NCBI GenBank assembly: GCA_964508905.1
Contig: CAZDVO010000004.1
Span: 11,956 to 75,955 of the forward strand
DNA: 64,000 nucleotides
Direction of reading: 5' to 3'
Source: an uncultured bacterium
GTDB taxonomy: Bacteria; Omnitrophota; Omnitrophia; Omnitrophales; Aquincolibacteriaceae
Shown here: piece after piece, positions 3,999-63,296 of the stretch
How the letters are laid out: every line of letters starts with the position of its first letter
Position numbering within the stretch: the first letter of the stretch is position 1
Program-made: the position numbers and the translations under genes
Notes under the pieces: generated by a model
What the model saw: the letters and a program-made list of their open reading frames with translations, nothing else
The model's database searches: none
Told to the model about the DNA's origin: nothing

Positions 3999-4006
3999 GA
4001 AAACAT

Positions 4007-4080: not shown

Positions 4081-4152
4081 TGAAGTGTTCGGAGGGACGC
4101 ACATCATAAGCTTTCGTTCTTTGGAATTCAACGAAAAACATGAGGTGTCTTG

Positions 4153-31822: not shown

Positions 31823-32515
31823 TTAGTCTTCGCACGGAGGATACTGCAGCGGCGCTTTTCCGATGATCTCCAATATCACCGATTTGGAGTCCACATTTCC
31901 GGCTTTTCGCATCTCTTTTAACTCCACGTTAAATTGCCAACCATCGCCGTAATCAAAGAGAAAAATCAACTTTTCGCCGACACACTTGAAGGCTTGAGAT
32001 ATTTTCACCTTTTTAACGCCCTTTGCCAATTCGCGCGTCGGGTCCTCACCGATATCGACAAAAAGTTCGAACGCTTTTTTACAATTCTTCATGTCTTCCA
32101 AAGTGTCGTAAAACCCAAAGCAATGGTCGAACTGAAAACCAAACGCCTGCGTTATAACCCTGGCGAAATTGTACAAGCTTTTTGATCCCGGGATCTGAAT
32201 CCTGCGTATGATCTTCTTTGCTTCCGTGCATTTTGCATCCCCATAGAGCCAGACATCAAAAGTATAAAGGCCGGACACGGCTCGCATCCTCTTCTCTGGA
32301 GCCGGAGCAAGATCATCAATAACACGTGCCACCTTGTGGCCGCAGGCGCCGCAGAACCCTTGAAGCACCACAACGCCGCGCAGTTCCGCGTGATAATCAA
32401 CAATGGTCACAGCCTTCCGGCATTCCCCGCACCAAACGCTGTTCAAAAATATCTGCCTCGTATCTGCCGGAAGGCCTATCCACAATTTCAATGCTTCTTT
32501 CGACATTCTGCTCAA
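31823..32515 (-). CDS. Hypothetical Zn-ribbon protein
   Basis: 'CGECRK...(17 aa)...CGACGHK' tetracysteine ribbon at the N-terminus; the C-terminal 'FLFDYGDGWQFNVEL' is vaguely reminiscent of the pRiA4b-ORF3-like family (uncertain). Confidence 0.4.
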   Translation of the reverse strand: MSRMSKEALKLWIGLPADTRQIFLNSVWCGECRKAVTIVDYHAELRGVVVLQGFCGACGHKVARVIDDLAPAPEKRMRAVSGLYTFDVWLYGDAKCTEAKKIIRRIQIPGSKSLYNFARVITQAFGFQFDHCFGFYDTLEDMKNCKKAFELFVDIGEDPTRELAKGVKKVKISQAFKCVGEKLIFLFDYGDGWQFNVELKEMRKAGNVDSKSVILEIIGKAPLQYPPCED

Positions 32516-33554: not shown

Positions 33555-33557
33555 AGA

Positions 33558-34166
33558 TCATTCCTGAAGCTGTTTGAATATGGCGCCTATCCACGCGGGG
33601 GCATATCGGAAATCACGCATCAGTTGCTTTTTTTCATCCCCTTTCAACCGGGCTTTCAATCTCCTGATCACTTTATCGTCAACGTGGTTCATCCCGAGAT
33701 ATCGCAGAGCCTGAATCACCAGCCCGCTGACACATCCGGCTGTGGCCATATTCTTGGGGGTTGTTCTTTTCAATACAACCTGCTGATTCTTAACCCGCAC
33801 AATCCTGTTCGCGCCGTCGGTTAGAAAAATAATTTTCGCAGGTACCTGCTCGGTCAACCCCAGCAGATTGGCGGCATAGGCCCCGGACGGTTGAATTTTC
33901 AAGTTATCTCTTCCGGCCAATGCTTGAGCTATCCGCTCATAATTCGCCGGAAGATCGCCCAATGTCGGATGTTTCTCAGGATAATCATAGAGACCCCGTG
34001 CCAAACGACGAATGGTCCCGGATCTTACCAGCCGACCCAATGCTTGATCGATGGCTGCACGATTTCCGAGATCAAGAAAATAGCTTGGAGTAAATACCCG
34101 CCCTCTATTTTTGTCGCTAATCCTATTGAGTACTTTTCTCTCAATACTCTGTGCCATATATGCCAC
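33558..34166 (-). CDS. AbiEi-family antitoxin / transcriptional regulator
   Basis: 202 aa with an N-terminal wHTH-like segment 'AIDQALGRLVRSGTIRRLARGLY'; immediately upstream of and co-oriented with AbiEii (3-nt spacing). Confidence 0.7.
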   Translation of the reverse strand: MAYMAQSIERKVLNRISDKNRGRVFTPSYFLDLGNRAAIDQALGRLVRSGTIRRLARGLYDYPEKHPTLGDLPANYERIAQALAGRDNLKIQPSGAYAANLLGLTEQVPAKIIFLTDGANRIVRVKNQQVVLKRTTPKNMATAGCVSGLVIQALRYLGMNHVDDKVIRRLKARLKGDEKKQLMRDFRYAPAWIGAIFKQLQE

Positions 34167-36154: not shown

Positions 36155-36172
36155 TTTGCCTTCCCCTGCCAC

Positions 36173-36395: not shown

Positions 36396-39300
36396 TTACG
36401 CGGCAATAGCAACAATGAAGTTGTTATCGTAGGTTCGCTGTAGAGCGTCCAGAAGGCTTTCTTCCACGGTCCAGAAACCGCCCTCTTGTCTTACCTCCGG
36501 CATGCGGATGTCTTCCCCTCCTGAAATGGCCCAAAGAAGCGCCATTGCGAGCGAGCCGCTCTTGTCACTATTCATTTTGAAAAATGACACTCGCTTACGC
36601 AGGCTACCGATCGACGTCCGCGAAGGCAGGACTTGTTTTGATAAATGAACGGTGGGGACATGAAATCTTGAAAAAACGTTTACTGCTTGATCAAGATTAC
36701 GCTCCGTTCTCGTAACGCGTTCAAGCTTAAGGAGCGCTGCCAGCTCTTCATCATGAACTTGCCCGTTTTCGTTATAAACAATGATGCGCGTTTCCGATCT
36801 TGAAAGCGCCACGAACAGATATTCCTGCTTCTGCGCTTCCGACAAACTCCCCCAATCCTCCGCATCCAAAAATACCGTCACCGGTTGCGTATTTCGACGA
36901 ACATTCTGAATGATTTGATCGCTTGGACCGGTGCTCACTCCGGGGATTGTCTCCATGCGCGTCTCGCTCCGCTCCCTAGGAACCCTGTTAGGGGAGCGAT
37001 TCGAAGGCACACGTTTTGGAGACCCGTTAAAACCGATCGCAACAGATTCTATGGCGGATTCGTGCTGTCCCGGAGAAGTTCTCAACGCGCGAGCTTTAGA
37101 GCGAGTTTCCCGGGCAGCTGATGCTGCAGGAATATTCCGGAGCTGTTCGGCTTCGCGGTCGGGATACTGCGCTAGAAATTCGTCACGCCACTTAATCACG
37201 TCATGCTCAGTAGGCGTCCAAAGACTCCGATACCAAGTCTTATCCTCCGGATAGTAATCCCGATGCAGGGGGTGAACTTTTTTGCCGGACAATAAAAATT
37301 GGACGCGCCTCACAAGAACCTGGACCAGCGCATAAAGCCGGTAGATCAAAGCCTCCACGCCCCTAGCCTGGCGCTTCAGATTTTTCGGTAAATAAGAGTC
37401 GTCCTTCGCGACAAGAAGCTTCCACTGTTTTTTTTCCGGCAAATACGCCACGACGTTGATACCGACATTCTGGGAGAAATCCGCAAAACCTCGCACCGCC
37501 GTATATTTTTTGACGGAAATTTGTCCAAAGGCCATCAATAGCGCAAGGATGGATCCGCCATGCGCTCCAATAGCTACGGTTTTTCCCTTAATTGAAGGGC
37601 TGTTTAATAAATCCTGAGAGAATTCCCGAAGGTCGCCCATCATTCCGGCCAATGAATCCAACTGCAAGGTGGTAACGGCTTCTGGGTATCGTTCGAAAAA
37701 ATTTTCTGGGTCAAAAATCACTTTGGCCATTTTGCCCGGAACACCTGCGACAGGGAATATACTGGTTTCAGCCAAACGAGAATCGACCGGCATGACACCC
37801 TGGCGCCCGCGACGCTTCCATAAGGGATACAGGGTTTGGTATGCCCTTTCCGAATCGCTGGATACAAAAATATCGAACGGAATTTTTGCGAGAAATTTAT
37901 CCAGGGCCTGGGCCTGTTTCTTTCCGCGAAAAGTTCCGGGGGAGAAACCATAACGTGTTTGCGTGACCTTCGTCAAATTTGAAATCGACTCTTGATGACG
38001 GATCGCATAGACCACAACCGCGTCAGGATGTGCTTCCCTCCAACCCGAATGCCAAAAATCCAGAACACTTCCATATTCCGGCGTCAGAAACGCCTTTTGT
38101 TCGGGGGTTAACTCACGATGAGGTTCCAGAGAAGTTGCCAAATCGCGCATTTCGGATCGGGGTTTTACTGCCGGCTCTTGCCCAGCAACGTCAGGCGTAT
38201 CCGCCGCCGCGCGGTCGGGCTCGGCCCCCTTCATCGCCGCTCCATCGCCCGGCGGGTTGTCTGTAGCTGTTTTTGCCTTGATAATTTTGAAAGCCGCGTC
38301 GACTTCTTCTAACAATAACGGCATCTCCTTCCCATTGAACATATCGACTATCTCACGACTAGTTATTTCTCTGCCCCTGTTTTGTTTAGTCACTTCAAGC
38401 CATTGATTAAAAATAAAGAGATCTTTGTCCGGGGAATTTATTGATAACTGTTTTATCAAAACAGGTAGCCCGATAATAAAGCCACGGTATCTATCACTGT
38501 CAAAACGAGGGTTACCTCGAATGATCTTTCTGTTTTCCGGAAGTTTCCCCATAATAGAATCTTGAACAAGTTCCGGCAAAATCATTAAAATATCCCCATT
38601 CCGAATACCAGACAACGCATCGCGAATGGCCATTGCTGAGGCGCCTTCATAATTCATGCCTCTTAAAAGCGTCTCTTGAAATAAATTTTCCTTTCTCGAA
38701 CTCTCCGCCGCGTTAACCTCTTCGGGAAGCAATTCGCTATCATGCGGCTCGCGCTCACTAAATAAAACATTGATAAAAACATTGTTAGTTTCTAAGAAGG
38801 CCTTATGCTTCCTCAAAAGTTCGGAAAACTTTAAAAGAGTATCAGGTTCTGGTTTCCCGTCTTTTATCTTCGCCCTATACTGATGCGTTCGCTCCCATAA
38901 TTCATAATCAGGCGCGAAATAATGCCTATGATCTGATCCTCCCAGATTGAAAGCGTAGAACCTTCCATTTTTTCTGCCCACGTTCAACTTAATCAGATCA
39001 ATAAAATCTGACTCTCCATCCGTAGAAGTCCCCTTTCCTATATCGCTGTATTCAAAGATATCCTTCACATAGCCCGTCATAAGAGCGATAAACTCAGCCA
39101 CAATATCATGCCTCTCTTCAATGGTCCTTCCGATGGCACCCTTCCTGTCATCCGCCCCCTGAACGCGAATAACCCCTATATCGGCCTTGCTTTGTACCAT
39201 GGCACGAAACATAGCCTCAATATGCCCGAAATGCAATGGATTGGCGGCTATAGAATAATAAAGCATTTTTGCATCCCCTGAATCCTCATCCGAACTAGTC

Positions 39301-42300
39301 AGTACGGGCGAACGATCATTGATCCGCACTCGAACATGCCGAGTTTCGCCATTGAGCCGCAACACAGCCATATTCCAAATTTGTAATTTTAAACGTCGGG
39401 CGATCAGCTCTGCTTGGGCTCTTTGAAATGAACTACGCGGCTGCCTTATCATGTCTGAGATCGCCTGATTAAGGCCAACAAAATCCCCTCCTATGAGTGC
39501 CTTTAATTTTTCCGGTCGGTAAATGCTCCTAGCATATTCAAACTCCTGATAAACCTTTTCATCCGCTGACCCACGATATAAAGCATGAATAAATGCCCTC
39601 GTGAGAGAAGCTTTGTCTTTCGATCGTTTCAAGCGTTTGAGGAACGAGGTTTCCATGTAGATCTTGCTGACGCCATTTTCCCTTACCCTTGCGATTCCGA
39701 AAGTAATTTTATCAGTCTCGATCAAATAGACCTTACTGTCTTCCTTAATTCCTAAAAAATCCTTTGCCACATTCAATTCTCTGTCAAATTCCACGGTCGG
39801 CCTTTCGGATCTTCTGGCCGCAGCCAGATTTTTCCTGAGCTCAAACAAGGACATTCTTTCATAGTAGCCATGATCAGCTAAGCGAACATTACGGTTTGCC
39901 AGCATTTCCAGAACATCCCGCATTAGACTGCGGCTATAAAACTCAATATTATCTGATCGATAAACAACCTCATGCTGATCTTCATTAAGGCGAATTGTCA
40001 GAATCGAGCTCTTCCCTGACGGGCCAATGAAATAGATCTCCCATCGATCACCCTGTCTTTGGGCCTTCTCAAAGCGCAGATCAACCCGTTTAGCGATCTC
40101 TTGCCCCAGCAATGCGGGAAATTCATCTTTGTTCTGAAGAACAACAAGATGGTCAAAAGAATCTAGATCAAAAGAAGAAATTTTCTTTTCAAGAGCACCC
40201 GGCGCCGGATCTCCTTTGTCAGACCCTTTGATAACTTTCACTACAGGCGCAAATTCAGCTCCTAGCTTGGAGAATTTCTCGTCTATTCCATCCGCTATCG
40301 CTTCGGATATCTTTCTATAAACCCATGGATCAGTTTCATCTAAATAGCCGGCCACTTCGAAGCCGCGCTCATGAAGACCGTACGATGTCGCCCCATCATC
40401 CACCGTTGTTACCAAAACCCCGTTGGGCAGTATCATTAAATATTTATAGGTCTTTTCTTCCTGCAGGGTCTTGTTCATTCGAAGGACCTGATCCGCAGTA
40501 AAAGAGCTATCTTCGCGAGCAAGGTACGCACGCACTCTTTCCCGCATCAGTTGAACAGCCTCATCATGAAGAAGGGCAAATTCATCGTAGGTTATCCCCA
40601 GAGATTTCTTGAGTTCATTCGGGAAACTTTTGAGCGGCTGAAATATATTGCATTTCCATATGGGAGGCCGTATCGACGGGTAGTGTTGTTTTGTTTTATT
40701 AAAAACATCCAAAATAATACCTTCAACATAAGGCAGGAGATCCGTCTTGACCTTATCAATGTTTTCTCTCGTAACCGTGGTGGTTATCACGATTTCTATA
40801 TCTTTATCCCTCTGAGCAGCGATTGTCTTGATGCTGGCTATTACTTCCGGCCATAACAAAGGGATTTCCCCTCTGAATGAATGCGGGTCGACCGTATCCA
40901 AAGAAAAACAAAACTGATCGACATAACTGATAAATTTTTCTAAAGGAACAAGATGCGTGCTCTTCCGGTCTTCTTTATAAAGCTCAATAAAGATCTCGCC
41001 CCCGACCTTTTTAAATTGCAGGCCGTTCGTGTTAACAAAAACCTTCATTCCTTTAGATTTTACATAAGCAATAATTTCATCAAACCGAGGGACTATAGTC
41101 GGTTCGCCGCCGCTAAAGGATATGCCTTCAATGCCTGTCTCAGCCAAAAGGTTAATGGTATGCAATATTTCTTTAAAAGACGGCTCCTTTGTCCCGTATT
41201 TAGCGATCTCTTTCTGTGAATAAAAATTTCTTGCCCAGCATTGCCGGCATTTTAATTGACACCGCAGCGAAGGAAGAAAGTCTATAAGTGAAGCGAATGT
41301 CCCTTCCCGGAAAGGGACTGCTCCCTCGGGGATACTCTTGTGTTGCCGGGCTAATAATACAGCTTGAGGCTTTGCTGCTTCCCGCATCTCGGAGCGGGCG
41401 GTTGTATTTTCCGGATTCTCTTTTTCCGCCGCAACTTTTGCTTTCAGGCGTCTGACCCGCTCGTCTATTCTCTCGATCTCCGCATCGTAGTACTCCCGGA
41501 CCTTATGATGCCTGGCCGCTTCTTTCTGGGATCTCAAGATATTTTTAACACCTTCCATGTCGATCTCATAATCCCGGAGCGCGTGCTCCCGGTCGTCCCT
41601 CCACGCCGCCTCGACCTTTCGATCGATCTTTTCTTCCTCCCCTCGTCTTTCAAAAGTTCGTTTCAGATACTCATGGTCAGCATCATGCGAAAGAGCCACC
41701 ACCTCTTCCGTGCTCAGGTCGAAGATCAATTCAGGGTTGTTACCAAAAACTTCAGGATGGGCTTTTGCGGTCTCGATCATGAGAGGATGCATCTTTTTCT
41801 GATAGCGGGTAATCAGCTGATGGGCATCCTCCATGAAAGAAAATTGTTGGACGTTGAGGGAGACAATCTTCCTGAGCGTTGGATAGCTTCCCAGGATAGT
41901 CATGAATTTCTCCTGATTTTTTTCTTCCTTAGCTTTCTCACCTCGGAGGTACTGTATCGTTTGGGATATTTCATCATCCAGCGCCTCCATGCTGACCGAA
42001 GGCTTCTCGCCGGCATTCGACATCCTGATCCTCGTAAAAAGTCGCAACGCGAGAAAAAGTTTCAGATCCAATATTCGGATCTTTTCACGAATGGTTTTTT
42101 CCGACTTAAGTTTCCAGACATCAACGGGTTCCCCATTCTTATCGCAAAGTCTTTCGATCAGCCGCAAAAGCTGGGGGGCCGCAATCGTTTCCGCTAAGTC
42201 CGAATCGGAAGCAAGGTTTGCTTGAAACTCATGCAGAAATGACACTTCATCATCACCTTTCCGGATATCTTCATCAGAAGCTTTGTAGTTATGCATATAA

Positions 42301-45300
42301 TCCGCCAGCGCCTGATAAACATCTCCCGTCCTCCGGGCGCGGGCATCTCTGACCCTTGTTTCGATGGCGCCAAGCGCTCCTTCTTCAAAAAGTTTCATGA
42401 CAGCCGCATCTTCCCGGATCATCTCCTCAATGGCGGCTACTTCTTTTACCTTATCCCAATGGGTCAACTTTTTCATCCAATGCTGTTCTGTTTCAGGCGT
42501 TAACTGAAGCGCCGCTCTCTCCAAACCGGCACGACTCATTGACAATTCGAATGCGTTAAAAAACCGCGCCTGCGGATACCAGAATTTATCCTGAAAAGTC
42601 GCGTGAAATGGTCGCGCAATGTGCATCCAAGCCAGCAATTCCACTAACCATGCCGTAGCCTGTTGCATCTGGCCACCACTTAAAAGCCCGCTGTCGGGAA
42701 GCCCACTAAAGAAGGCGTCTGCCTCCATGAACCGCTCAACACGCTTCTTGAGGACCGAATCGTAATCAACCAATTCCCGCCGATACAGCGGATTCTGAAG
42801 TCCGCTAGGTTCATTAATAAGCAACGAGTAAATGATCCTGTCCTTAAATTTTCGAGGCATGGTTTTGAATTCGTTTGTTTTGAATAAATTATTGAGCATT
42901 TCGGCGTATTTTTCAAAAGCCCGGTAATAATAATCCAGTTCAAAATAACCAAACTCTGTCTTGGGGCGCCCCCTCCACTCGCCTTCAAAATCCGGCATGT
43001 AGTTCTCTTTACCACCCTCCCTATAGAACCCTTCGAAATCTCCGTCGCTAAGCCAGACATCCCTCGGCTTAGGCGCGGGCTTAGCCAAAAGCTCCGCCGC
43101 TTGTTTCCACATTTTAAGTTCAATGCGAACTGTTTTGACCTTAACCGCGGGAGGCATTCCGTCATCCCGATAGTAGATGGTCCTTGTCCCGGAATCGAGT
43201 ACGACGGACTGATCGTCAAATTTCTTCAGGTCTTCGACCGCATTTTTAGAACCGACAACACATGCCTTATCCCGCTCACGAGCCGTTACCGCCGCATGAC
43301 TGGTCGTATTTCCGTTCTCCGTGATAACTCCCGCCATTCTGAAAAAAGCATTGTCCCAGCTGTTATCCGTCTCCTGGGTCACGAGAATATCTCCGGCCTT
43401 GATCTTCCGCGCGATTCTTTGGCTTTCGGCACGCTTCTGATTCTCTGGCAGATCCATACGAACCGGCCTTACTCTCAAAACACCGATCGCGACGCTCGGG
43501 AAACCGACAACAGCATCTCCAGGTAAAGTCATTTTTTTTACGGTGCTATCCATATCGCTCTCATCCACTGTCTTGATCTCAATAAAGCCAGCCTTGCTAA
43601 TGGTCGTTTCAGGCCGTGTCTGGACAACATGGATGACCCCCGATTTATCTTGCGCGAATTCAATATCCACGTTGGCGACATCCTTCATGGAGTTATATTT
43701 ACTCCGAATCCTCTGGGATATCTTCGCCAAACGCATAACAGCTTCCATCTCCAGAGAAGGCATCATTTGTTCATGCGGATCCGTGATCTTAACTCTCACA
43801 GTGCCATGCTCTCCCGTTATGATCTTCTCCGTCTTTGGCTGAGGCTGCTCCTCAAGAATGGTTTGCGCGTCAGGACTAATTGTCCACTCATCCGCCAAAC
43901 CAGACCCTGACACCACGCCTTCACCCAGTCCGGGCTTGGCATTGATCCTGAAAGCAGGTCGACCGGTCGTGGTATCCACGGAAAAAACATTGCCAGCCGA
44001 CTTAGCATCCACCATTTTTAATATCACAACCGGCATCATGGGAGTTTCTGTCATCTGATTCAAGATCCTGTAATTCACGAAACCACTATTAAAAAGACTG
44101 GCCCACACCTGAATAACAGCTCTGCTAACCTGCTTCGTATTATTCCTAGCCAGGACGCTATCTGCTTTTCCTGCACAAGCTGCCTTTGAGGAATCTTCAA
44201 CGCTAGCCGAACTCCTAACGGCAACACTGACCTCGGTCGCATCGCCTTGAAGGGATCCCATCATTTTCGAGATATCTTCCAAGAGTGGTTTGGGCAATCT
44301 GACCAACCACCGGATCCCAGTTCGGATCATCCAAGCCTCTATTTGAATTTCTCCTTGGAGAAACAAATCCAGGAACCAAAAGCGGGCTCCCGCAATAAGC
44401 TTTCTCCAGGCGGACAGTTCATTTTCCATCGCCTTGGCTTCCTTTGCCTTGCGATCCCTCAGAACTATCAGCTTCAAAGATAAAATTCGTAATCGTTCGA
44501 TCAGTGCTCCCAAAAACGGATTCCTTAAAACAACTTTTTTAAATACCTCAGCGCGAAGGATATAACCTTCCGGGACCCTCACAGGGTCAGAGACATTGTC
44601 CCGAGCTTCTTCAGCGGCAAGCATTCGCAGATAATGAAGATTGGCTCCCTTCCCTCCGGATACCGATTTATTGCCGCTGTCAGGATGGTCCAGATGGACC
44701 AAAGACTGACCAATCTCGAGGGGGAGATGTTCTGATACTGAAATATTCCGAACAACTTGCCTGGAAACAGTTTCGTAAATAGCATCGCTAATACTGGGTT
44801 GTAAATTCTCTTTTGCAGAAGATTCCGCTGAGAAAGGAACTGAAAGATCGCTGGCCAAAGCTGCGCCTTCTTCTCGTAGCTTGTAAAAAACATCCCACCA
44901 CAGCCTGAATCCATAGGCATCCGCGTTCAGGTTCTTCAATTCGTCCTCGGTCATAGGCATTTTTTCCCTATCGGCGAGTTTTCTCGGCTCTCTGAACTTG
45001 TCTGCCACCTTTTGATCTTCTAAAGCATTCAGGAAATAAGTGAATAAAGTGCCGGTTTCGAAGATTTCGGCCGGAGGTAATAATGGTACTGATGTTGCCT
45101 GTGCGGCTTCTTGTGCCAAACTGGCAAGCGCCTCACGTAGAGCTGTATCATTTTTTGTAACATAAATGACAAGCGCATGTTTTACAGGATCGTAATCCAG
45201 AACCAGCTCTTTACTGACAAGATCCTTTTGCTTTTCATAAAAAGAGCTCAGCTTACCGGCCTCATTCGTGTTCAAAGCCTGAAAGGTATAACTTTGAATG

Positions 45301-48300
45301 TAGCGGCTTTGTTCACCGGGTTTCCCGATCCTCTTCAGTCGTGACGCATCAGAACCGATCTCGAGATAATCTTTAAGAACCTGCTGAGCAGAATTTGTAA
45401 TGTTTGTGTCCGGTGCGATTTCACTACCTAAAGCTACTGAAAATTTGGAGGGAAATAAATCGCTGTAAGGCCCTTGTTTTTTAACTAAAACCCGTCCCTT
45501 GGTATCAAAGACCATCACTTGGACGCTTTGTCTTAAACCTTTTGCTTGTTGCCGCCTTCCATGGAGATTGATCAAATGACGCAATTGTGAGATCGCAAAA
45601 TAGGTCGAAAGGAAGTGAGGGTCGGGTTCCCCGACAATGTTCCCGTTATTCAAGATTGTGATGTCTTTTTCAATGACATTGAGCAAACCTTCCGCATCCT
45701 CATAACGGGCTTTAGCAACCATCTCCCTGACCGCGACGACTCTGTCGGGAAGTCCGGCCAGCAGACAACTGATAGCATGCGCCTGCCTCAGCATCGCAAG
45801 GACCTCGGCCGACCCGAAATAAACCGCCGTCAAATCCTCCGCATACTTCGCATGATCCGTGGAAAACATATCCGCAACGGCATCAATGGTTAGGAATTTC
45901 TTGGCATCAGAATCGATCAGCTTCAAAACACCTGAAGTGAGTGAATTCACTGAATTTTCTGCTGTTCTCCGCTGAGCTTCGTGAGATTTTACCTTCGTTT
46001 TAACCGCTTTCGCCTCGGCCTCGGTCAGAGGATAGACCAAAAGCGTGCTCTTTTCGTAAGTCACCGCGGTTAACAAAGATGGTATATGAGTTTCACTACC
46101 GATCGCCAGGACTAACCTGTCTTGATCCGCAGCAAGTTCAGCGCTGTCCTTTAGAATATAAACAGTGAGGGAGTGTTTCGTTTCTTCATCAAAATCCAGG
46201 GTGATACCCTGAGCTCCAGCCGATACTTTGTGTATTTCAAAAGCTTTCTTAAGAGATTCGGCTTCGCTCTGGTTAAAAGCCGGAAAAACATAGCTTCGCA
46301 TATAGTGCAAATGGGTATCTTCGCCGCCGACCCGCAGGATTCGCTTTGGATCCGCCTCGATTCCTATCTCCTGCCGGATTGAGGCCTTCACTTTTTCTTC
46401 AACCGCCGCGACATCAGCTCCCGCAGATGGTTTGGCATTGGCGGACACGGAATATTTGGAAGCAAAGAGTTGTTTATAAGGACCGCGCTTCTGGAGAAGA
46501 ATCTTGCCTTGGGGATCGACCGCCAGAATCTGAACACTTTGTTTCTGCGCAACATTATCGGAAATCACTTTTTTCTTAGCGACTTTCTCAAGCAACAGTT
46601 TTGCCGAAAAGTAATTCGCCAAGAGATATTTATCGACCTTGCTATAAGACCATTTCTGGACTAGCTTCCCGAGCGCTTCAACAAGAGGCTCCAACTTCCT
46701 CGCCGCCGCGGTGAAATCCATTTTCGAAAGCAGTTCTCGCGCCTCAACCAGCCCTTCATAAAGCTCTAAGGTATTCCGATCCTCTTGGGTGCTTTCAGCT
46801 TCCCGCATCTCGGAGCGAAGTTGGGCATTTCTATCCACTGTGTGCGCAGGTTGCATTGCTTGCTGAAGATCAACAAGACGACGCTCGATCAGTTGAGGGT
46901 CAGAGTTACCCGCGTCAACAGAAGAAGCAATCGCATGAAGTTTTGCACGCACAAATTCTTCGTTGCCGGTAGCGGCTAAGTAGGGGTAGCCCGGTGCTCG
47001 GTTGGCACGGGTAACAAGGAACGGGGCTTCGAAGGGGTGCAGTCCATCAGACATCAATCGTTTGTAATAATCCTGGTGACGCTTATCAATAGCCGTGATC
47101 TTGGGAGAAATGACTACATAAGAAAAACCCTGCTGCCTAAACATGTCCTTGATAGCGCTGGCGTGAAATCCCCCAAAAACCAGTATGGCGGCTTCCTCCT
47201 TGCCCTCCTGAAAGGCTCTGATGTGCTGATCGATCGCCCCATCCCGCTTCTGCGCCACATTGTAGAACCGAACCGCTTCCTTGATGTGCCGCTCCCACTC
47301 TTTGGAAAGAACTAGCGACCGGCGAGTCAGAGACACAATGAAATCCACTAATTTCTGCGTCTCAAGTTTTTCAAGCGCGTCTTTGGCCGCTTCATATTCC
47401 GATTGCGTGAGTTGGATCTGGTTGAGCCGTTTGAGCAAGCTCAAACCCTGATAATAATCAAAGATCTTTTTGTCCCGGTCATTTTGAAGGAAGGTCTTTG
47501 AAAGTCCCTGCTCCAGACGGCTCGCCTCTTCAAAAATAACGCGGGAATCCAGAGCGTTCAATTGCCCGATCAGCTTTTGGTCCCGGGTGGTTTCAGCGGC
47601 AAGAAGGATCGTAAGGGCGGGATATTCCCGGAAAAAGGAATCCGGATCCGCGACATTCTTCCGGTATAACGCTCGCAATGCTTTGAGATAATCGAGAAGG
47701 GGCCGTTCCCCTTTTGAGTATCCTTCCCGGAAGCGAAGCCAGGATTTCAGTTCCTTCGGAAAATACCGGTTGGCGAGGATCAGGATGTGCTTAAGAAGCT
47801 CATCAAGATCCGCTTCAGTGTCCTTCCGCTTCCTTGAAGAATCCCGATAAGCCTCGATATTTTTTGAATAGAGATCAAGATTTTCAACCCCGATCAGCTC
47901 AAAATCCTGTTCCCGGTTAATGTGCGCGTATTCCGCGCCTCCGATCCTCAATTTGTCCAAAAGAAAATAAGAGACCTTTTGTTTAATCTCGGGATCTTTG
48001 ATGAATCCAAAAAATTTTTCCGTGGGAACAGGGCCCTCATAGCCTTCCTCAAAAACGGTCTTGATCCCCTTTTCTTTTACGAAATTACCGATAAGCTTCG
48101 CGATGTTCTCCTGGGCTTCAAGAGAGTCGTGAGCATCCTGAATAAAAAGAATGGTCTTGCCGGAAGCTCCTTGAAAAGATTCTTCGATTTTTCCAAGTCC
48201 GGGAGGGACCGCGATCATGCCATTAAGGACTTGAGCGGTCGAAACGGAGACCGGATCACCTCCCGGAACATTGGAATTTTGCGCCTGCCGACCGGCGGGC

Positions 48301-48422
48301 ATAGCAAAACTGGTTGGTGTGGGAATAAGAATCTGCGTAGCGACAAAGGAAAGGACGATGAAAGACGCAATGGTCTTTAGAGAAAGTGAGGGCCCAGATG
48401 TTGCTTTTCGGAACAACTTCAT
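36396..48422 (-). CDS. Giant 4008-aa multidomain protein with signal peptide/TM, PEP-utilizing ATP-grasp plus phospho-His module, tandem Nudix-like repeats, radical-SAM core, HxGH nucleotidyltransferase and histidine-phosphatase domains
   Basis: A single uninterrupted 12,027-nt ORF. N-terminal hydrophobic segment 'TIASFIVLSFVATQILIP'. 'SVSGGKGANLHYL' (aa ~1253) and 'GNTTSHAAVTARERDKACVVG' (aa ~1704) are the PPDK/PEP-synthase ATP-grasp and mobile-His motifs. 'CQLKCRQC...SFSGGEPT' (aa ~2388-2441) is the radical-SAM CxxxCxxC plus GGE motif. 'ANPLHFGHIEAM' (aa ~3060) is a (H/T)xGH nucleotidyltransferase motif. 'YAIRHQES...GAHGGSIL' (aa ~3473-3625) are the RHG/HGG histidine-phosphatase motifs. Two ~130-aa internal repeats start 'SVQILAVDPQGKILLQKRGPYKQLFASKYSV' and 'SVQVMVFDTKGRVLVKKQGPYSDLFPSKFSV'. 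Confidence 0.85.
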   Translation of the reverse strand: MKLFRKATSGPSLSLKTIASFIVLSFVATQILIPTPTSFAMPAGRQAQNSNVPGGDPVSVSTAQVLNGMIAVPPGLGKIEESFQGASGKTILFIQDAHDSLEAQENIAKLIGNFVKEKGIKTVFEEGYEGPVPTEKFFGFIKDPEIKQKVSYFLLDKLRIGGAEYAHINREQDFELIGVENLDLYSKNIEAYRDSSRKRKDTEADLDELLKHILILANRYFPKELKSWLRFREGYSKGERPLLDYLKALRALYRKNVADPDSFFREYPALTILLAAETTRDQKLIGQLNALDSRVIFEEASRLEQGLSKTFLQNDRDKKIFDYYQGLSLLKRLNQIQLTQSEYEAAKDALEKLETQKLVDFIVSLTRRSLVLSKEWERHIKEAVRFYNVAQKRDGAIDQHIRAFQEGKEEAAILVFGGFHASAIKDMFRQQGFSYVVISPKITAIDKRHQDYYKRLMSDGLHPFEAPFLVTRANRAPGYPYLAATGNEEFVRAKLHAIASSVDAGNSDPQLIERRLVDLQQAMQPAHTVDRNAQLRSEMREAESTQEDRNTLELYEGLVEARELLSKMDFTAAARKLEPLVEALGKLVQKWSYSKVDKYLLANYFSAKLLLEKVAKKKVISDNVAQKQSVQILAVDPQGKILLQKRGPYKQLFASKYSVSANAKPSAGADVAAVEEKVKASIRQEIGIEADPKRILRVGGEDTHLHYMRSYVFPAFNQSEAESLKKAFEIHKVSAGAQGITLDFDEETKHSLTVYILKDSAELAADQDRLVLAIGSETHIPSLLTAVTYEKSTLLVYPLTEAEAKAVKTKVKSHEAQRRTAENSVNSLTSGVLKLIDSDAKKFLTIDAVADMFSTDHAKYAEDLTAVYFGSAEVLAMLRQAHAISCLLAGLPDRVVAVREMVAKARYEDAEGLLNVIEKDITILNNGNIVGEPDPHFLSTYFAISQLRHLINLHGRRQQAKGLRQSVQVMVFDTKGRVLVKKQGPYSDLFPSKFSVALGSEIAPDTNITNSAQQVLKDYLEIGSDASRLKRIGKPGEQSRYIQSYTFQALNTNEAGKLSSFYEKQKDLVSKELVLDYDPVKHALVIYVTKNDTALREALASLAQEAAQATSVPLLPPAEIFETGTLFTYFLNALEDQKVADKFREPRKLADREKMPMTEDELKNLNADAYGFRLWWDVFYKLREEGAALASDLSVPFSAESSAKENLQPSISDAIYETVSRQVVRNISVSEHLPLEIGQSLVHLDHPDSGNKSVSGGKGANLHYLRMLAAEEARDNVSDPVRVPEGYILRAEVFKKVVLRNPFLGALIERLRILSLKLIVLRDRKAKEAKAMENELSAWRKLIAGARFWFLDLFLQGEIQIEAWMIRTGIRWLVRLPKPLLEDISKMMGSLQGDATEVSVAVRSSASVEDSSKAACAGKADSVLARNNTKQVSRAVIQVWASLFNSGFVNYRILNQMTETPMMPVVILKMVDAKSAGNVFSVDTTTGRPAFRINAKPGLGEGVVSGSGLADEWTISPDAQTILEEQPQPKTEKIITGEHGTVRVKITDPHEQMMPSLEMEAVMRLAKISQRIRSKYNSMKDVANVDIEFAQDKSGVIHVVQTRPETTISKAGFIEIKTVDESDMDSTVKKMTLPGDAVVGFPSVAIGVLRVRPVRMDLPENQKRAESQRIARKIKAGDILVTQETDNSWDNAFFRMAGVITENGNTTSHAAVTARERDKACVVGSKNAVEDLKKFDDQSVVLDSGTRTIYYRDDGMPPAVKVKTVRIELKMWKQAAELLAKPAPKPRDVWLSDGDFEGFYREGGKENYMPDFEGEWRGRPKTEFGYFELDYYYRAFEKYAEMLNNLFKTNEFKTMPRKFKDRIIYSLLINEPSGLQNPLYRRELVDYDSVLKKRVERFMEADAFFSGLPDSGLLSGGQMQQATAWLVELLAWMHIARPFHATFQDKFWYPQARFFNAFELSMSRAGLERAALQLTPETEQHWMKKLTHWDKVKEVAAIEEMIREDAAVMKLFEEGALGAIETRVRDARARRTGDVYQALADYMHNYKASDEDIRKGDDEVSFLHEFQANLASDSDLAETIAAPQLLRLIERLCDKNGEPVDVWKLKSEKTIREKIRILDLKLFLALRLFTRIRMSNAGEKPSVSMEALDDEISQTIQYLRGEKAKEEKNQEKFMTILGSYPTLRKIVSLNVQQFSFMEDAHQLITRYQKKMHPLMIETAKAHPEVFGNNPELIFDLSTEEVVALSHDADHEYLKRTFERRGEEEKIDRKVEAAWRDDREHALRDYEIDMEGVKNILRSQKEAARHHKVREYYDAEIERIDERVRRLKAKVAAEKENPENTTARSEMREAAKPQAVLLARQHKSIPEGAVPFREGTFASLIDFLPSLRCQLKCRQCWARNFYSQKEIAKYGTKEPSFKEILHTINLLAETGIEGISFSGGEPTIVPRFDEIIAYVKSKGMKVFVNTNGLQFKKVGGEIFIELYKEDRKSTHLVPLEKFISYVDQFCFSLDTVDPHSFRGEIPLLWPEVIASIKTIAAQRDKDIEIVITTTVTRENIDKVKTDLLPYVEGIILDVFNKTKQHYPSIRPPIWKCNIFQPLKSFPNELKKSLGITYDEFALLHDEAVQLMRERVRAYLAREDSSFTADQVLRMNKTLQEEKTYKYLMILPNGVLVTTVDDGATSYGLHERGFEVAGYLDETDPWVYRKISEAIADGIDEKFSKLGAEFAPVVKVIKGSDKGDPAPGALEKKISSFDLDSFDHLVVLQNKDEFPALLGQEIAKRVDLRFEKAQRQGDRWEIYFIGPSGKSSILTIRLNEDQHEVVYRSDNIEFYSRSLMRDVLEMLANRNVRLADHGYYERMSLFELRKNLAAARRSERPTVEFDRELNVAKDFLGIKEDSKVYLIETDKITFGIARVRENGVSKIYMETSFLKRLKRSKDKASLTRAFIHALYRGSADEKVYQEFEYARSIYRPEKLKALIGGDFVGLNQAISDMIRQPRSSFQRAQAELIARRLKLQIWNMAVLRLNGETRHVRVRINDRSPVLTSSDEDSGDAKMLYYSIAANPLHFGHIEAMFRAMVQSKADIGVIRVQGADDRKGAIGRTIEERHDIVAEFIALMTGYVKDIFEYSDIGKGTSTDGESDFIDLIKLNVGRKNGRFYAFNLGGSDHRHYFAPDYELWERTHQYRAKIKDGKPEPDTLLKFSELLRKHKAFLETNNVFINVLFSEREPHDSELLPEEVNAAESSRKENLFQETLLRGMNYEGASAMAIRDALSGIRNGDILMILPELVQDSIMGKLPENRKIIRGNPRFDSDRYRGFIIGLPVLIKQLSINSPDKDLFIFNQWLEVTKQNRGREITSREIVDMFNGKEMPLLLEEVDAAFKIIKAKTATDNPPGDGAAMKGAEPDRAAADTPDVAGQEPAVKPRSEMRDLATSLEPHRELTPEQKAFLTPEYGSVLDFWHSGWREAHPDAVVVYAIRHQESISNLTKVTQTRYGFSPGTFRGKKQAQALDKFLAKIPFDIFVSSDSERAYQTLYPLWKRRGRQGVMPVDSRLAETSIFPVAGVPGKMAKVIFDPENFFERYPEAVTTLQLDSLAGMMGDLREFSQDLLNSPSIKGKTVAIGAHGGSILALLMAFGQISVKKYTAVRGFADFSQNVGINVVAYLPEKKQWKLLVAKDDSYLPKNLKRQARGVEALIYRLYALVQVLVRRVQFLLSGKKVHPLHRDYYPEDKTWYRSLWTPTEHDVIKWRDEFLAQYPDREAEQLRNIPAASAARETRSKARALRTSPGQHESAIESVAIGFNGSPKRVPSNRSPNRVPRERSETRMETIPGVSTGPSDQIIQNVRRNTQPVTVFLDAEDWGSLSEAQKQEYLFVALSRSETRIIVYNENGQVHDEELAALLKLERVTRTERNLDQAVNVFSRFHVPTVHLSKQVLPSRTSIGSLRKRVSFFKMNSDKSGSLAMALLWAISGGEDIRMPEVRQEGGFWTVEESLLDALQRTYDNNFIVAIAA

Positions 48423-63278: not shown

Positions 63279-63296
63279 TTTGCCTTCCCCTGCCAC

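What the first reader, a model, noticed from the sequence alone, without database searches (positions are those of the whole stretch)
40623..41315. Radical-SAM core in the middle of the giant protein
'CQLKCRQC' (C-x3-C-x2-C) followed by 'ISFSGGEPT' and 'VFVNTNG' are the canonical AdoMet radical cluster and SAM-binding motifs. A radical-SAM module fused to kinase, nucleotidyltransferase and phosphatase domains in one polypeptide is highly unusual. It hints at modification of a nucleotide or peptide substrate within a single mega-enzyme.
Basis: partly seen in the sequence, partly recalled or inferred. Interest (0 to 1): 0.6.

Follow-up and report, generated by a model that had tools for sequence, protein, structure and literature searches.

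The report
Radical-SAM cassette in modular Omnitrophota giant protein
The cysteine motif is a real radical-SAM enzyme domain, but it is one interchangeable cassette in a large Omnitrophota family of "enzymes-on-a-string" proteins whose cassettes are separated by a short, apparently undescribed Arg-Ser-Glu-x-Arg motif.

Summary
On the minus strand, 40623-41315 encodes residues 2370-2600 of a 4008-aa ORF (36396-48422). CQLKCRQC, SGGEPT and VNTNG lie where stated. Pfam Radical_SAM scores 44.1 bits against a cut-off of 29.5. The three cysteines are kept in all five homologues that cover them. An AlphaFold model (pLDDT 84) matches solved radical-SAM enzymes, with viperin-like enzymes best at E 1e-10. 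The domain belongs to a rare, unclassified subfamily with no auxiliary-cluster cysteines.

The fusion is not a one-off. The protein belongs to an Omnitrophota-restricted family of 2,200-6,900-aa proteins, with several paralogues per genome. All members share a signal-like N-terminus and a ~480-aa head; many also share a ~190-aa tail. Between these lie highly variable enzyme cargoes.

Cargo blocks are bounded by R-[S/A]-E-hydrophobic-R. RSE[LMVIA]R occurs 659 times against 4 expected, and homology-block ends coincide with it. The PPDK-like kinase block and the phosphatase block occur in relatives without this radical-SAM domain. A nucleotidyltransferase is supported only by short motifs. The substrate is unknown. 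Whether the motif is a cleavage site is an open and testable question.

The parts
36396..48422 (-). Giant ORF, 4008 aa plus stop. It is identical to an NCBI-sourced protein (P0004).
48315..48386 (-). N-terminal hydrophobic segment, aa 13-36. It is preceded by K2, R5, K6 and K16 and followed by 'PTPTSFA/MPAG', so it reads as a Sec-type signal peptide or signal anchor. This is my reading only; no predictor was run.
46833..48275 (-). Conserved 'head' domain, aa ~50-530, shared by all 119 family members examined. Invariant motifs are QDAHDS (aa 95-100), EEGYEG (125-130), AEYAH (163-167) and GGFH (417-420). There is no Pfam or PDB sequence match. There is weak fold resemblance to erythromycin esterase/ChaN-type hydrolases.
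46803..46817 (-). RSEMR punctuation motif 1, aa 536-540, at the head/cargo boundary.
41397..46802 (-). Cargo block B, aa 541-2342. It holds two diverged tandem copies of a ~360-aa unit (aa 541-900 and 900-1255; 27% identity, E 2e-27), PPDK_N (aa 1256-1611), the PEP-utilizers mobile domain (aa 1675-1744), and a ~600-aa helical region with no Pfam match.
41382..41396 (-). RSEMR punctuation motif 2, aa 2343-2347, 21 residues upstream of the radical-SAM domain.
40197..41318 (-). Radical-SAM domain, aa 2369-2742. The Pfam core is aa 2385-2533. The C-terminal extension holds a beta-hairpin and helices and has no cluster cysteines.
41238..41261 (-). CQLKCRQC: C2388-x3-C2392-x2-C2395, the predicted ligands of the [4Fe-4S] cluster.
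41100..41111 (-). GGEP ('GGE' SAM-binding motif), aa 2438-2441. It is invariant in every homologue that covers it.
41022..41036 (-). VNTNG (end of strand beta3), aa 2463-2467. TNG is invariant in homologues.
40896..40907 (-). FSLD (beta4 'ribose' motif, as in MoaA's VSLD), aa 2506-2509.
   Evidence: the MoaA comparison is from memory
39333..40196 (-). Region X, aa 2743-3030. It has no recognisable family. It is conserved only in close relatives, at 68% identity in L002.
38160..39332 (-). Nucleotidyltransferase-like region, supported at motif level only, aa 3031-3421. HFGH is at 39222-39233 and SAMAIR at 38622-38639.
38145..38159 (-). RSEMR punctuation motif 3, aa 3422-3426. Homologous phosphatase blocks in P0040 and P0063 begin exactly at their own RSExR.
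37413..38012 (-). His_Phos_1 histidine phosphatase domain, aa 3471-3670, inside cargo block D (aa 3427-3817).
36957..36971 (-). RSETR punctuation motif 4, aa 3818-3822, at the start of the tail.
36399..36956 (-). Conserved C-terminal 'tail', aa 3823-4008. BLAST finds it in about 32 of 119 relatives. It contains a fifth motif copy, RSETR, at aa 3875-3879 (36786-36800), at a conserved distance of 133 aa from the C-terminus.

Best explanation
Shown. The interval encodes the catalytic core of a genuine radical-SAM (AdoMet radical) domain, aa 2369-2742 of a 4008-aa protein. C2388, C2392 and C2395 are placed to bind a [4Fe-4S] cluster. The GGEP, TNG and SLD motifs line the SAM site of a partial TIM barrel. 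There are no cysteines for an auxiliary cluster, so it is not a SPASM, twitch or MoaA-type enzyme. It is an unclassified, very rare subfamily whose nearest solved folds are viperin-like enzymes, SkfB and MoaA.

Shown. The domain is the first part of a 1074-aa cassette (aa 2348-3421: radical SAM, then a 290-aa unknown region, then an HxGH-motif region). Two RSEMR pentapeptides bound this cassette. The whole protein is a member of an Omnitrophota-specific, multi-paralogue family. The family is built as a signal-like N-terminus, a conserved head, a variable string of enzyme cassettes, and a conserved tail. The cassettes are delimited by R-[S/A]-E-hydrophobic-R in otherwise unconserved linkers, and they are exchanged between relatives as units.

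Inferred. The domain works like any radical-SAM enzyme. The reduced cluster cleaves SAM to a 5'-deoxyadenosyl radical, which abstracts a hydrogen from a small-molecule substrate. My guess is a nucleotide or nucleotide-sugar, given the nearest folds and the cargo types in the family. Each cassette is an autonomous enzyme, either tethered to the head or released from it, rather than a station of an obligatory assembly line.
For: Radical-SAM identity:
- Pfam PF04055 scores 44.1 bits against a cut-off of 29.5; Fer4_12 also passes.
- NCBIfam and PDB sequence hits are all radical-SAM families: MoaA, GDGT-MAS, SkfB and viperin.
- The AF2 model has pLDDT 83.9 and pTM 0.84. Foldseek against the PDB gives 50 hits at E<=1e-3, about 45 of them radical-SAM enzymes; the best are viperin-like 9dfw/9dfn/9dgw at E ~1e-10 and TM 0.65.
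- The Cys triad, GGEP, TNG and SLD are conserved in P0124, P0003, P0126, P0131 and P0002. P0003 has CX5CX2C spacing.
- dN/dS against the L002 homologue is 0.21-0.24 across the radical-SAM, X and NT-like regions.

Rarity: only 5 cluster representatives at E<1e-30 among 1.84 billion, including the protein itself.

Family:
- 216 relatives at E<=1e-10. All 119 others listed share aa ~50-530, about 32 share the tail, and almost nothing else is shared.
- 162 loci were found in species-representative genomes. Every one that carries a phylum-level name is Omnitrophota except one record titled Planctomycetales, and there are up to 6-7 per genome.

Punctuation motif:
- RSE[LMVIA]R occurs 659 times against 4.0 expected, a 165-fold excess. 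RAE[LMVIA]R shows a 31-fold excess.
- It is absent from 147 unrelated radical-SAM proteins.
- It occurs at 1.32 per 1000 aa in giant ORFs against 0.064 in flanking ORFs.
- All 5 six-frame hits in this 64-kb window fall in the giant ORF.
- Its codons differ between sites, so it is a protein-level motif.
- 44-45% of cargo BLAST-block ends lie within 25 aa of a motif, against 7.6% at random. Only 14.6% of blocks span a motif, against 45.8% at random.

Cassette autonomy: the same radical-SAM domain occurs alone (P0126, P0131), as sole cargo of a different carrier (P0124, P0003), and with X plus NT-like but without the giant context (L002/P0125, P0271, P0272).
Against: - No activity, cofactor or substrate evidence exists.
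- The N-terminus reads like a Sec signal with an N-in orientation. That would put an Fe-S/SAM/ATP-dependent cargo outside the cytoplasm, which is hard to reconcile with catalysis unless the segment is only an anchor with the opposite topology or the cargo acts in another cell. No signal-peptide predictor was available.
- The residue between the second and third Cys is Gln. The more usual residue there is aromatic (from memory), and His is found in P0124, P0003, P0126 and P0131.
- The substrate guess rests on low-identity fold neighbours (14-18%) and on an unverified HxGH region.
- Cargo sets in some relatives look pathway-like, so 'autonomous cassettes' may understate functional coupling.
Confidence: 0.75

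Rival explanations
1. Polyprotein. R-[S/A]-E-hydrophobic-R is a protease recognition site. The 4008-aa precursor is cut into a head, a kinase block, a radical-SAM block, a phosphatase block and a tail, and the radical-SAM enzyme acts as a free ~120-kDa protein. This adds to the best explanation rather than excluding it.
For: - The motif is strict and sits in unconserved linkers rich in A, S, E and P. Residues at -1 and +1 are small.
- The two Arg and the Glu are near-invariant, while Ser can be Ala. That fits a recognition site better than a nucleophile or a phospho-acceptor.
- The motifs lie 20-45 aa upstream of domain starts, where the N-terminus of a stand-alone enzyme would be.
- Median spacing is 334 aa, about one enzyme.
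- The end of the head model, which contains the motif, has pLDDT <50.
- West-Roberts et al. proposed cleavage of Omnitrophota giants but had no cleavage points.
Against: - There is no proteomic evidence.
- Pfam finds no protease domain in this protein.
- There is no conserved neighbouring protease gene upstream of 80 family loci.
- One motif copy lies inside the conserved tail in what looks like a structured strand (aa 3875-3879).
- The motif could equally be a docking or tethering element.
Confidence: 0.3
2. Single coordinated mega-enzyme. The kinase, radical-SAM, nucleotidyltransferase and phosphatase domains act in sequence on one nucleotide or peptide substrate, which is channelled along the polypeptide.
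For: - All the domains are in one ORF.
- Radical SAM, X and the NT-like region stay together in the close relatives L002, P0271 and P0272.
- Cargo of P0006 and P0007 looks like a coherent sugar-nucleotide pathway.
- Radical SAM and His_Phos_1 co-occur in 3 of the 4 listed proteins that carry His_Phos_1.
Against: - P0005 has block B (PPDK_N) joined directly to the tail, with no radical-SAM or phosphatase block.
- The phosphatase block sits right after the head in P0006, about 1,800 aa away from a different radical-SAM domain.
- More distant relatives of this radical-SAM domain (P0124, P0003, P0126, P0131) lack X and the NT-like region.
- The nucleotidyltransferase itself is unverified.
Confidence: 0.2
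3. Prokaryotic viperin (pVip)-type antiviral enzyme in a defence island. The radical-SAM domain would make a chain-terminating ddh-nucleotide.
For: - The best solved-structure matches are viperin-like enzymes with CTP and SAM bound.
- PADLOC pVip models hit at E 2e-12, and NCBIfam viperin_w_prok at E 5e-11.
- The neighbours include an AbiEii/AbiEi pair, a DUF4062/HATPase_c_4 protein with pAgo-associated-like hits, and a large serine recombinase.
Against: - All the viperin/pVip model matches cover only the first ~85 residues, from the cluster loop to beta3. This is the generic part of any radical-SAM domain.
- NF038283 scores 42.3 bits against a cut-off of 180, covering profile positions 11-97 of 281.
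- Fold TM-scores are only 0.45-0.67 at 14-18% identity, and SkfB, PqqE, MoaA and DesII score almost as well.
- The domain is cargo of a housekeeping-like, multi-paralogue family rather than of a defence operon.
Confidence: 0.07
4. Peptide-modifying (RiPP-maturase-like) radical-SAM enzyme that acts on a peptide or on the giant protein's own linkers.
For: SkfB, PqqE, SuiB and anSME are among the fold and sequence hits.
Against: - There is no SPASM or twitch match, and no cysteines after aa 2591 for an auxiliary cluster.
- No RRE-like domain was recognised.
- No precursor-peptide gene is evident.
Confidence: 0.05
5. Decayed or non-catalytic relic domain kept only as a spacer.
For: The protein is extremely Cys-poor. 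The position before the last cluster Cys is atypical (Gln).
Against: - All canonical motifs are intact and conserved down to 26-30% identity.
- dN/dS is about 0.2.
- The fold prediction is confident.
Confidence: 0.04

Closest known systems
Viperin-like radical-SAM enzymes (e.g. Trichoderma virens VLE, PDB 9dfw/9dgw/7n7i; prokaryotic pVips)
   Same: They are the best structural match (Foldseek E 1e-10 to 1e-8, TM normalised to the target 0.6-0.67). They share CX3CX2C, GGE and a partial TIM barrel, have no auxiliary cluster, and are of similar size.
   Different: Identity is only 14-18%. Viperin/pVip sequence models match only the N-terminal ~85 residues and stay far below cut-off, at 42 bits against 180. 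This domain also has an extra beta-hairpin (model residues ~110-134) and a ~100-aa C-terminal beta/alpha extension. It is embedded in a 4008-aa protein.
MoaA (GTP 3',8-cyclase) and related SPASM/twitch enzymes (SkfB, PqqE, SuiB)
   Same: MoaA is the best PDB sequence hit (2fb2/1tv7, E 4e-4, aligned over the cluster loop to beta3). The TNG and SLD motifs are similar.
   Different: TIGR02666 scores 35 bits against a cut-off of 284. There are no C-terminal cysteines for the second cluster that defines these enzymes.
Omnitrophota 'multi-enzyme metabolic cluster' very long proteins (bioRxiv 10.64898/2026.06.07.730766) and the enzyme-bearing 'Dockerin-type' giants of West-Roberts et al. (bioRxiv 10.1101/2023.11.21.568195)
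   Same: Same phylum. Many unrelated enzyme Pfams tile one polypeptide. Radical_SAM (in 90 long proteins), PPDK_N, NUDIX and HAD are listed among the domains. N-terminal signal or transmembrane features are discussed.
   Different: Those studies treat proteins of >=10,000 aa (or larger) and describe them by Pfam content. Keyword searches of the two preprints found no 'linker' or 'polyprotein', and the single 'motif' occurrence was in a cited title; none of the retrieved passages described the conserved head, the tail or the RSExR punctuation. West-Roberts et al. state that cleavage points are unknown. This protein is 4008 aa.
Eukaryotic and viral multi-enzyme polypeptides and polyproteins (AROM, CAD; picornavirus-type polyproteins). 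This is a conceptual comparison from general knowledge.
   Same: Several autonomous enzymes are encoded in one reading frame and separated by linkers. In polyproteins a short recurrent motif marks the junctions.
   Different: AROM and CAD have fixed domain order and one pathway, whereas here the order and content change between paralogues. Processing has not been shown here.
Erythromycin esterase / ChaN / TraB-PrgY-GumN / TIKI hydrolase superfamily (for the head domain only)
   Same: The top five Foldseek PDB hits of the head model are EreC and BcR135 (E 0.016-0.07, probability 0.5-0.8), and ChaN also appears. The head has an alpha/beta core split by a large helical insert, with invariant His/Glu/His-type motifs (DAH, EEGYEG, GGFH). 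hhalign lines up the head's 'RD...VFGGFH' with PrgY's 'RD...VIGQAH'.
   Different: The TM-scores (~0.2) and E-values are not significant. The hhalign probability is 0.9%. Pfam and the PDB profile search find nothing. This is a lead, not an assignment.

Membership tests
Radical SAM superfamily (Pfam PF04055) | Profile score at or above the curated gathering score | tested here: met
   44.1 bits against 29.5, E 3.3e-11, aa 2385-2533
Radical SAM superfamily (Pfam PF04055) | CX3CX2C (or a close variant) cluster-binding triad, conserved in homologues | tested here: met
   C2388/C2392/C2395. The triad is conserved in P0124, P0126, P0131 and P0002; P0003 has CX5CX2C.
Radical SAM superfamily (Pfam PF04055) | GGE SAM-binding motif and partial (beta/alpha)6 TIM-barrel fold | tested here: met
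   GGEP is invariant. The AF2 model has pLDDT 83.9. Foldseek finds 50 PDB hits at E<=1e-3, about 45 of them radical-SAM enzymes.
Radical SAM superfamily (Pfam PF04055) | Reductive cleavage of SAM by a [4Fe-4S]+ cluster | not testable with these tools
   Needs anaerobic biochemistry.
Viperin / pVip | Full-length match to the family model (NCBIfam NF038283, cut-off 180 bits; PADLOC pVip models) | tested here: not met
   42.3 bits, profile positions 11-97 of 281 only. PADLOC pVip models match positions 9-83 of 257 and 10-89 of 262 only.
Viperin / pVip | Nucleotide-triphosphate binding pocket residues | not tested
SPASM / twitch radical-SAM enzymes | C-terminal cysteine-rich auxiliary-cluster domain (PF13186) | tested here: not met
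   No SPASM hit. The only Cys after the triad are C2505 and C2591.
MoaA | TIGR02666 at or above 284 bits, and a C-terminal second cluster | tested here: not met
   35.4 bits over profile positions 19-105. There are no C-terminal Cys.
Omnitrophota head-family modular proteins (defined here; not a curated family) | N-terminal ~480-aa head with DAHDSLEAQ, EEGYEG, GAEYAH and GGFH motifs | tested here: met
   38-70% identity to the head of nearly all of the 119 relatives examined (best 73%, over a partial head). The head is always N-terminal.
Omnitrophota head-family modular proteins (defined here; not a curated family) | Cargo blocks delimited by R-[S/A]-E-hydrophobic-R | tested here: met
   Five copies, at aa 536, 2343, 3422, 3818 and 3875. 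Four are at block boundaries and the fifth lies inside the tail.
Omnitrophota 'multi-enzyme metabolic cluster' long proteins (2026 preprint) | Many distinct enzyme Pfams tiling one polypeptide | tested here: met
   PPDK_N, PEP-utilizers, Radical_SAM and His_Phos_1
Omnitrophota 'multi-enzyme metabolic cluster' long proteins (2026 preprint) | Length of at least 10,000 aa (the preprint's catalogue threshold) | tested here: not met
   4008 aa; threshold
Cytidylyltransferase-like nucleotidyltransferases (HxGH class) | Profile match (e.g. PF01467) or a solved homologue | tested here: not met
   No Pfam family at E<=5 for aa 3030-3425. The profile of 4 homologues against PDB sequences gives only chance ribosomal-protein hits.
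Cytidylyltransferase-like nucleotidyltransferases (HxGH class) | HxGH and ISxxxxR signature motifs | tested here: inconclusive
   HFGH (aa 3064-3067) is kept in two of the three close homologues; P0271 has HFGQ. SAMAIR (aa 3262-3267) is also present. Short motifs alone are not diagnostic.
PEP-utilising phosphotransferases (PEP synthase / PPDK / rifampin phosphotransferase type) | ATP-grasp PPDK_N plus phosphohistidine swivel domain | tested here: met
   173 bits and 59.9 bits
PEP-utilising phosphotransferases (PEP synthase / PPDK / rifampin phosphotransferase type) | C-terminal PEP/pyruvate TIM-barrel domain, or equivalog-level score | tested here: not met
   No such Pfam hit. The best NCBIfam score is 203 bits against a cut-off of 598.

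The most novel reading that the evidence does not exclude
The head-family proteins are exported polyproteins. The N-terminal Sec-type signal takes the chain out of the Omnitrophota cell. The TIKI/TraB/erythromycin-esterase-like head, or a partner protease, cuts at R-[S/A]-E-hydrophobic-R. The released cofactor-dependent enzymes, including this radical-SAM enzyme, act in the cytoplasm of a host or prey cell, where SAM, ATP and reductant are available. The cell would thus carry a shuffled, paralogue-rich arsenal of metabolic effectors on a string. A weaker form of the same idea is that RSExR supplies the cleavage or junction map that was missing for all Omnitrophota giant proteins.
Probability: 0.12. 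Interest if true: 0.9.

Novelty: new variant of a known kind. Interest (0 to 1): 0.55.

Why it matters
Radical-SAM domains in Omnitrophota long proteins were already on record as Pfam hits, so the domain itself is a new member of a known superfamily, though of a very rare subfamily.

What is new is the grammar around it. There is a constant head and tail. There is a recurrent five-residue junction motif, enriched 165-fold. And there is direct evidence that the enzyme blocks between junctions are swapped between paralogues.

Published work on these giants states that possible cleavage points are unknown. The motif gives exact, testable positions for proteomics and for cutting the proteins into units for structure prediction.

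The finding also sharpens a paradox that deserves an experiment: Fe-S-, SAM- and ATP-dependent enzymes sit behind what reads as a secretion signal, in a phylum suspected of a predatory or parasitic lifestyle.

Tried and rejected
- Pfam on eight separate segments (head, both duplicated units, helical region, X, NT-like, post-phosphatase, tail) at E<=5 gave only chance-level hits.
- Profile searches of PDB sequences with the head alignment and the NT-like alignment gave nothing meaningful.
- hhalign of the head profile against PrgY (TraB/GumN) from pCF10 aligned a suggestive motif but with probability 0.9%.
- The third protein-database search, with X plus NT-like, found only three close relatives with no annotation.
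- Looking up the contig of the giant protein itself failed: it is not on record.
- Contexts of the stand-alone or differently carried homologues P0124, P0126 and P0131 gave no informative partner genes. Neighbours were a transposase, a LacI-type regulator, an SDH-type protease and FolD. The L001 context of P0003 showed two large unannotated ORFs and a glycogen-branching enzyme, with no similarity to the rest of the giant.
- A search for a conserved gene upstream of 80 family loci, such as a protease or secretion partner, found no cluster present in more than 5 loci.
- A literature search for the motif strings RSEMR and RSELR returned only unrelated papers.
- A DNA-level function for the motif (for example a recombination site) was considered and rejected, because the codons differ between copies.
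- Ser as a self-cleavage nucleophile or phosphosite was considered unlikely, because Ala replaces it in about 20% of sites.
- A conserved radical-SAM/His_Phos_1 adjacency was checked and rejected: in P0006 the two domains are ~1,800 aa apart and in reverse order.
- tRNA-flanked island: the only tRNA (Val, 4005-4080) is far from the giant gene.


Full report
**1. Checking the observation**

The interval 40623-41315 has no open frame on the plus strand. It lies inside a single 12,027-nt ORF on the minus strand, 36396-48422, encoding 4008 aa. The interval corresponds to aa 2370-2600.

- CQLKCRQC at aa 2388-2395 (window 41238-41261)
- ISFSGGEPT at aa 2434-2442 (41097-41123)
- VFVNTNG at aa 2461-2467 (41022-41042)

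The protein has only nine cysteines, and three of them form the one CX3CX2C. Only 1 of 20,000 shuffles of the protein gave such a pattern.

**2. Is it a radical-SAM domain?**

Yes. The evidence is as follows.
- Pfam Radical_SAM matches aa 2385-2533 at 44.1 bits (gathering score 29.5, E 3.3e-11). Fer4_12 scores 26.3 bits against 22.
- NCBIfam returns only radical-SAM families for this stretch: tungsten-cofactor maturase, viperin, twitch-type, TrsS, Tes and MoaA. All are far below their cut-offs, and most cover only the first ~90 residues.
- phmmer against PDB sequences finds MoaA, GDGT-MAS, SkfB, SuiB, anSME and viperin.
- An AlphaFold2 model of aa 2360-2745, built on nine sequences, has mean pLDDT 83.9 and pTM 0.84.
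- Foldseek against the PDB gives 50 hits at E<=1e-3. About 45 are radical-SAM enzymes, and the last few are other TIM-barrel proteins. The list is led by fungal viperin-like enzymes with CTP and SAM bound (9dfw, 9dfn, 9dgw; E ~1e-10, TM on target 0.6-0.67, 14-18% identity). SkfB, GDGT-MAS, PqqE, SuiB, MoaA and DesII follow.

The triad is present in every homologue that covers it: P0124 CQLNCIHC, P0126 CQLLCPHC, P0131 CQLNCPHC and P0002 CQLKCPQC. P0003 has CALTKSCPHC, a CX5CX2C spacing. GGEP, TNG and SLD are equally conserved.

Against the 77-81% identical homologue on contig L002, dN/dS is 0.21-0.24 over the domain and the two regions that follow it. There is no SPASM hit and there are no C-terminal cysteines, so there is no auxiliary cluster.

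**3. How common is this particular domain?**

It is very rare. An exhaustive HMMER scan of 1.84 billion cluster representatives found 708 hits at E<=1e-3, but only 21 at 1e-10 and 5 at 1e-30, the protein itself included. Below that level the matches cover only the generic N-terminal third.

Full-length relatives occur in four settings:
- alone (P0126, 342 aa; P0131, 326 aa);
- as the only recognisable cargo of a different carrier, which has a signal-peptide-bearing N-domain and a C-terminal 'GGID...PVI...LGL' region (P0124, 881 aa; P0003, 598 aa);
- together with the next two regions of the giant but outside any giant (L002/P0125, P0271, P0272);
- in this giant protein.

These settings are documented. 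The contexts of the stand-alone genes gave no clue to the substrate.

**4. What is the giant protein?**

Pfam recognises five families:
- PPDK_N, aa 1256-1611
- PEP-utilizers, aa 1675-1744
- Radical_SAM, aa 2385-2533, overlapped by Fer4_12 (aa 2388-2474)
- His_Phos_1, aa 3471-3670

Segment-wise searches add nothing. The 'nucleotidyltransferase' is therefore not confirmed. It rests on HFGH (aa 3064-3067) and SAMAIR (aa 3262-3267) alone.

A search with the whole protein returned 216 relatives at E<=1e-10. The 120 listed are 2,200-6,900 aa long, and the sources name them Omnitrophota/Omnitrophica wherever a phylum name is given, apart from two 'Verrucomicrobiae bacterium' records.

BLAST coverage along the query shows what is shared. 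Residues ~50-530 are shared by all 119 other members, and residues ~3830-4008 by about 32. Almost nothing in between is shared. The head is always N-terminal.

The precomputed Pfam lists of the relatives are a catalogue of small-molecule enzymes: NDP-sugar epimerases, ROK kinases, HAD and HD hydrolases, methyltransferases, Nudix, glycosyltransferases, protein kinases and radical SAM. Fourteen of the 120 carry PF04055, and no two lists are alike.

A head-profile scan of one genome per species found 162 loci. Every record that carries a phylum-level name is Omnitrophota, except one titled 'Planctomycetales'. Single MAGs hold up to 6-7 loci.

The window itself is ordinary chromosome. It carries ThrRS, type IV pilus/T2SS genes, MgtE, MiaB-like, ABC/TolC and hybrid-cluster protein genes.

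**5. The punctuation motif**

While mapping domains I noticed RSEMR three times in the protein (aa 536, 2343 and 3422) and RSETR twice (aa 3818 and 3875). Four copies sit at block boundaries and the fifth lies inside the conserved tail. In all six frames of the 64-kb window the pattern occurs nowhere else.

Across the 120 family members:
- RSELR, RSEMR and RSEVR are the three most frequent pentamers of all, ahead of the invariant head motifs.
- RSE[LMVIA]R occurs 659 times against 4.0 expected. RAE[LMVIA]R occurs 160 times against 5.2.
- Substitutions of either Arg or of the Glu are near background.
- The median spacing is 334 aa.
- Flanks are unconserved and rich in A, S, E and P, with small residues at -1 and +1.
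- The codons differ between copies, so the signal is in the protein and not in the DNA.

The motif is absent from 147 unrelated radical-SAM proteins. It is 20-fold rarer in ORFs flanking 80 family loci than in the giant ORFs themselves.

The motif marks the units of shuffling:
- Among 603 BLAST blocks between cargo regions of different members, 44-45% of block starts and ends lie within 25 aa of a motif, against 7.6% for random positions.
- Only 14.6% of blocks span a motif, against 45.8% expected.
- P0005 contains the homologue of block B (the duplicated unit, PPDK_N, PEP-utilizers and the helical region) lying between its motifs at 1761 and 3136. It then runs straight into the tail, with no radical-SAM or phosphatase block.
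- The phosphatase block starts at the motif itself in P0040 (query 3422 against subject 4309) and P0063 (query 3420 against subject 1123).
- In P0006 the phosphatase follows the head, and a different radical-SAM domain lies 1,800 aa further on.

**6. Reading of the locus**

The radical-SAM domain opens a 1074-aa cassette, aa 2348-3421, bounded by RSEMR on both sides. The same three-part cassette exists on its own elsewhere, and the radical-SAM part alone exists in still other settings. I therefore regard it as an autonomous enzyme that has been captured as cargo.

Mechanistically I commit to the standard radical-SAM reaction on a small-molecule substrate. A nucleotide or nucleotide-sugar is my best guess, given the viperin/MoaA/DesII neighbours and the sugar-nucleotide and nucleotide enzymes that dominate the family's cargo. 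This step is inference and carries low confidence.

Some cargo sets look pathway-like, rather like an operon written into one polypeptide.

**7. Open problems**

First, topology. The N-terminus (K2, R5, K6, K16; hydrophobic aa 13-36; 'SFA/M') reads as a Sec signal or an N-in anchor. That would place Fe-S-, SAM- and ATP-dependent enzymes outside the cytoplasm. No predictor was available. The 2026 preprint discusses the same tension for the >=10,000-aa proteins.

Second, what the motif does. A protease site is the most economical idea: strict R/E/R, a tolerated Ser-to-Ala change, a disordered context, and a position just upstream of each domain. It remains unproven.

Third, the head. Its AF2 model (pLDDT 79.7) has an alpha/beta core interrupted by a large helical insert. 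Its top five Foldseek PDB hits are all erythromycin-esterase-type proteins, with ChaN further down, but at non-significant scores. hhalign aligns the head's 'RD...VFGGFH' with the equivalent motif of PrgY (TraB/GumN), but at 0.9% probability. From memory, that superfamily includes the TIKI protease. This would fit a processing role, but it is only a lead.

**8. Comparison with what is known**

Radical SAM, PPDK_N, NUDIX and HAD domains in Omnitrophota giant proteins are already listed in two preprints. One of them defines a class of 'multi-enzyme metabolic clusters' among proteins of >=10,000 aa. Seymour et al. note that the giant ORFs are poorly understood.

Keyword searches of the two preprints (for 'radical SAM', 'linker', 'polyprotein', 'cleavage', 'N-terminal' and 'motif') retrieved no passage describing the head, the tail or the junction motif, and I read only one section in full. 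West-Roberts et al. say explicitly that cleavage points are unknown. A full-text search for the motif strings found nothing relevant.

The domain is thus a new member of a known superfamily. The architecture around it is a new, more sharply defined variant of a known phenomenon.

**9. Verdict**

It is more interesting in another, because the fusions follow a simple and testable grammar. Interest is 0.55.

Noticed in passing
window 46803-46817, 41382-41396, 38145-38159, 36957-36971, 36786-36800 (minus strand); also proteins P0004-P0123: The pentapeptide R-[S/A]-E-hydrophobic-R recurs at cargo-block boundaries. It is 165-fold enriched in the family, is its most frequent pentamer, and coincides with the ends of homology blocks. 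I found no description of it in the searchable literature.
   Followed up: yes
window 46833-48275 (minus strand), aa ~50-530: The conserved head domain has invariant DAH, EEGYEG, AEYAH and RD...GGFH motifs. Its AF2 model weakly resembles erythromycin esterase/ChaN-type hydrolases (the TraB/TIKI superfamily). It could be a hydrolase or protease, but the scores are not significant.
   Followed up: partly
window 48315-48386 (minus strand), aa 13-36: A Sec-signal-like N-terminus precedes a cargo of cytoplasm-type, cofactor-dependent enzymes. No other strong hydrophobic segment occurs in the 4008 aa. The protein is only 0.22% Cys.
   Followed up: partly
window 44658-46802 (minus strand), aa 541-1255: There is a tandem internal duplication of a ~360-aa unit (27% identity, E 2e-27). 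It contains a Nudix-looking stretch that Pfam does not recognise. P0005 has a single copy.
   Followed up: partly
window 34640-36172 and 61725-63296 (both minus strand): Two paralogous DUF4062 / HATPase_c_4 / Fic-like_C genes bracket a ~25-kb block that holds the giant gene, a recombinase, ABC-2/TolC transporter genes and a hybrid-cluster protein gene. The first paralogue also gives partial PADLOC hits to pAgo-associated models.
   Followed up: no
window 48616-50415, 32535-34166, 31823-32515 (minus strand); GC profile: A large serine recombinase lies immediately upstream of the giant gene. An AbiEii/AbiEi (DUF6088) toxin-antitoxin pair and a PRiA4_ORF3-like gene lie downstream. GC drops from ~0.55 to ~0.46-0.49 at about 32 kb and stays low to ~62 kb. 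The region may be mobile or recently acquired; its boundaries were not determined.
   Followed up: no
proteins P0124, P0003, P0272 (loci L003, L001): A second 'carrier' architecture holds the same radical-SAM domain. It has a signal-peptide-bearing ~390-aa N-domain ('...NFAQLRQVYHSLILAVWYK...') and a C-terminal 'GGID...G(F/L)xPVI...(L/F)LGL' region. It carries no RSExR motif and has no Pfam match.
   Followed up: partly
locus L002 (ENA contig_103781), 2042-5305: The close homologue of the radical-SAM/X/NT-like cassette is split over three frames in this contig. The ~2 kb upstream has no long ORF. This could be sequencing error or a decaying copy.
   Followed up: no
proteins P0006 and P0007: These sister giants have ~65-70% identical head and tail but entirely different cargo: His_Phos_1 or NUDIX, an NDP-sugar epimerase/dehydratase, a PIG-L deacetylase and a different radical-SAM domain, plus a transketolase C-terminal domain in P0007. 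That cargo looks like a sugar-nucleotide tailoring pathway.
   Followed up: partly
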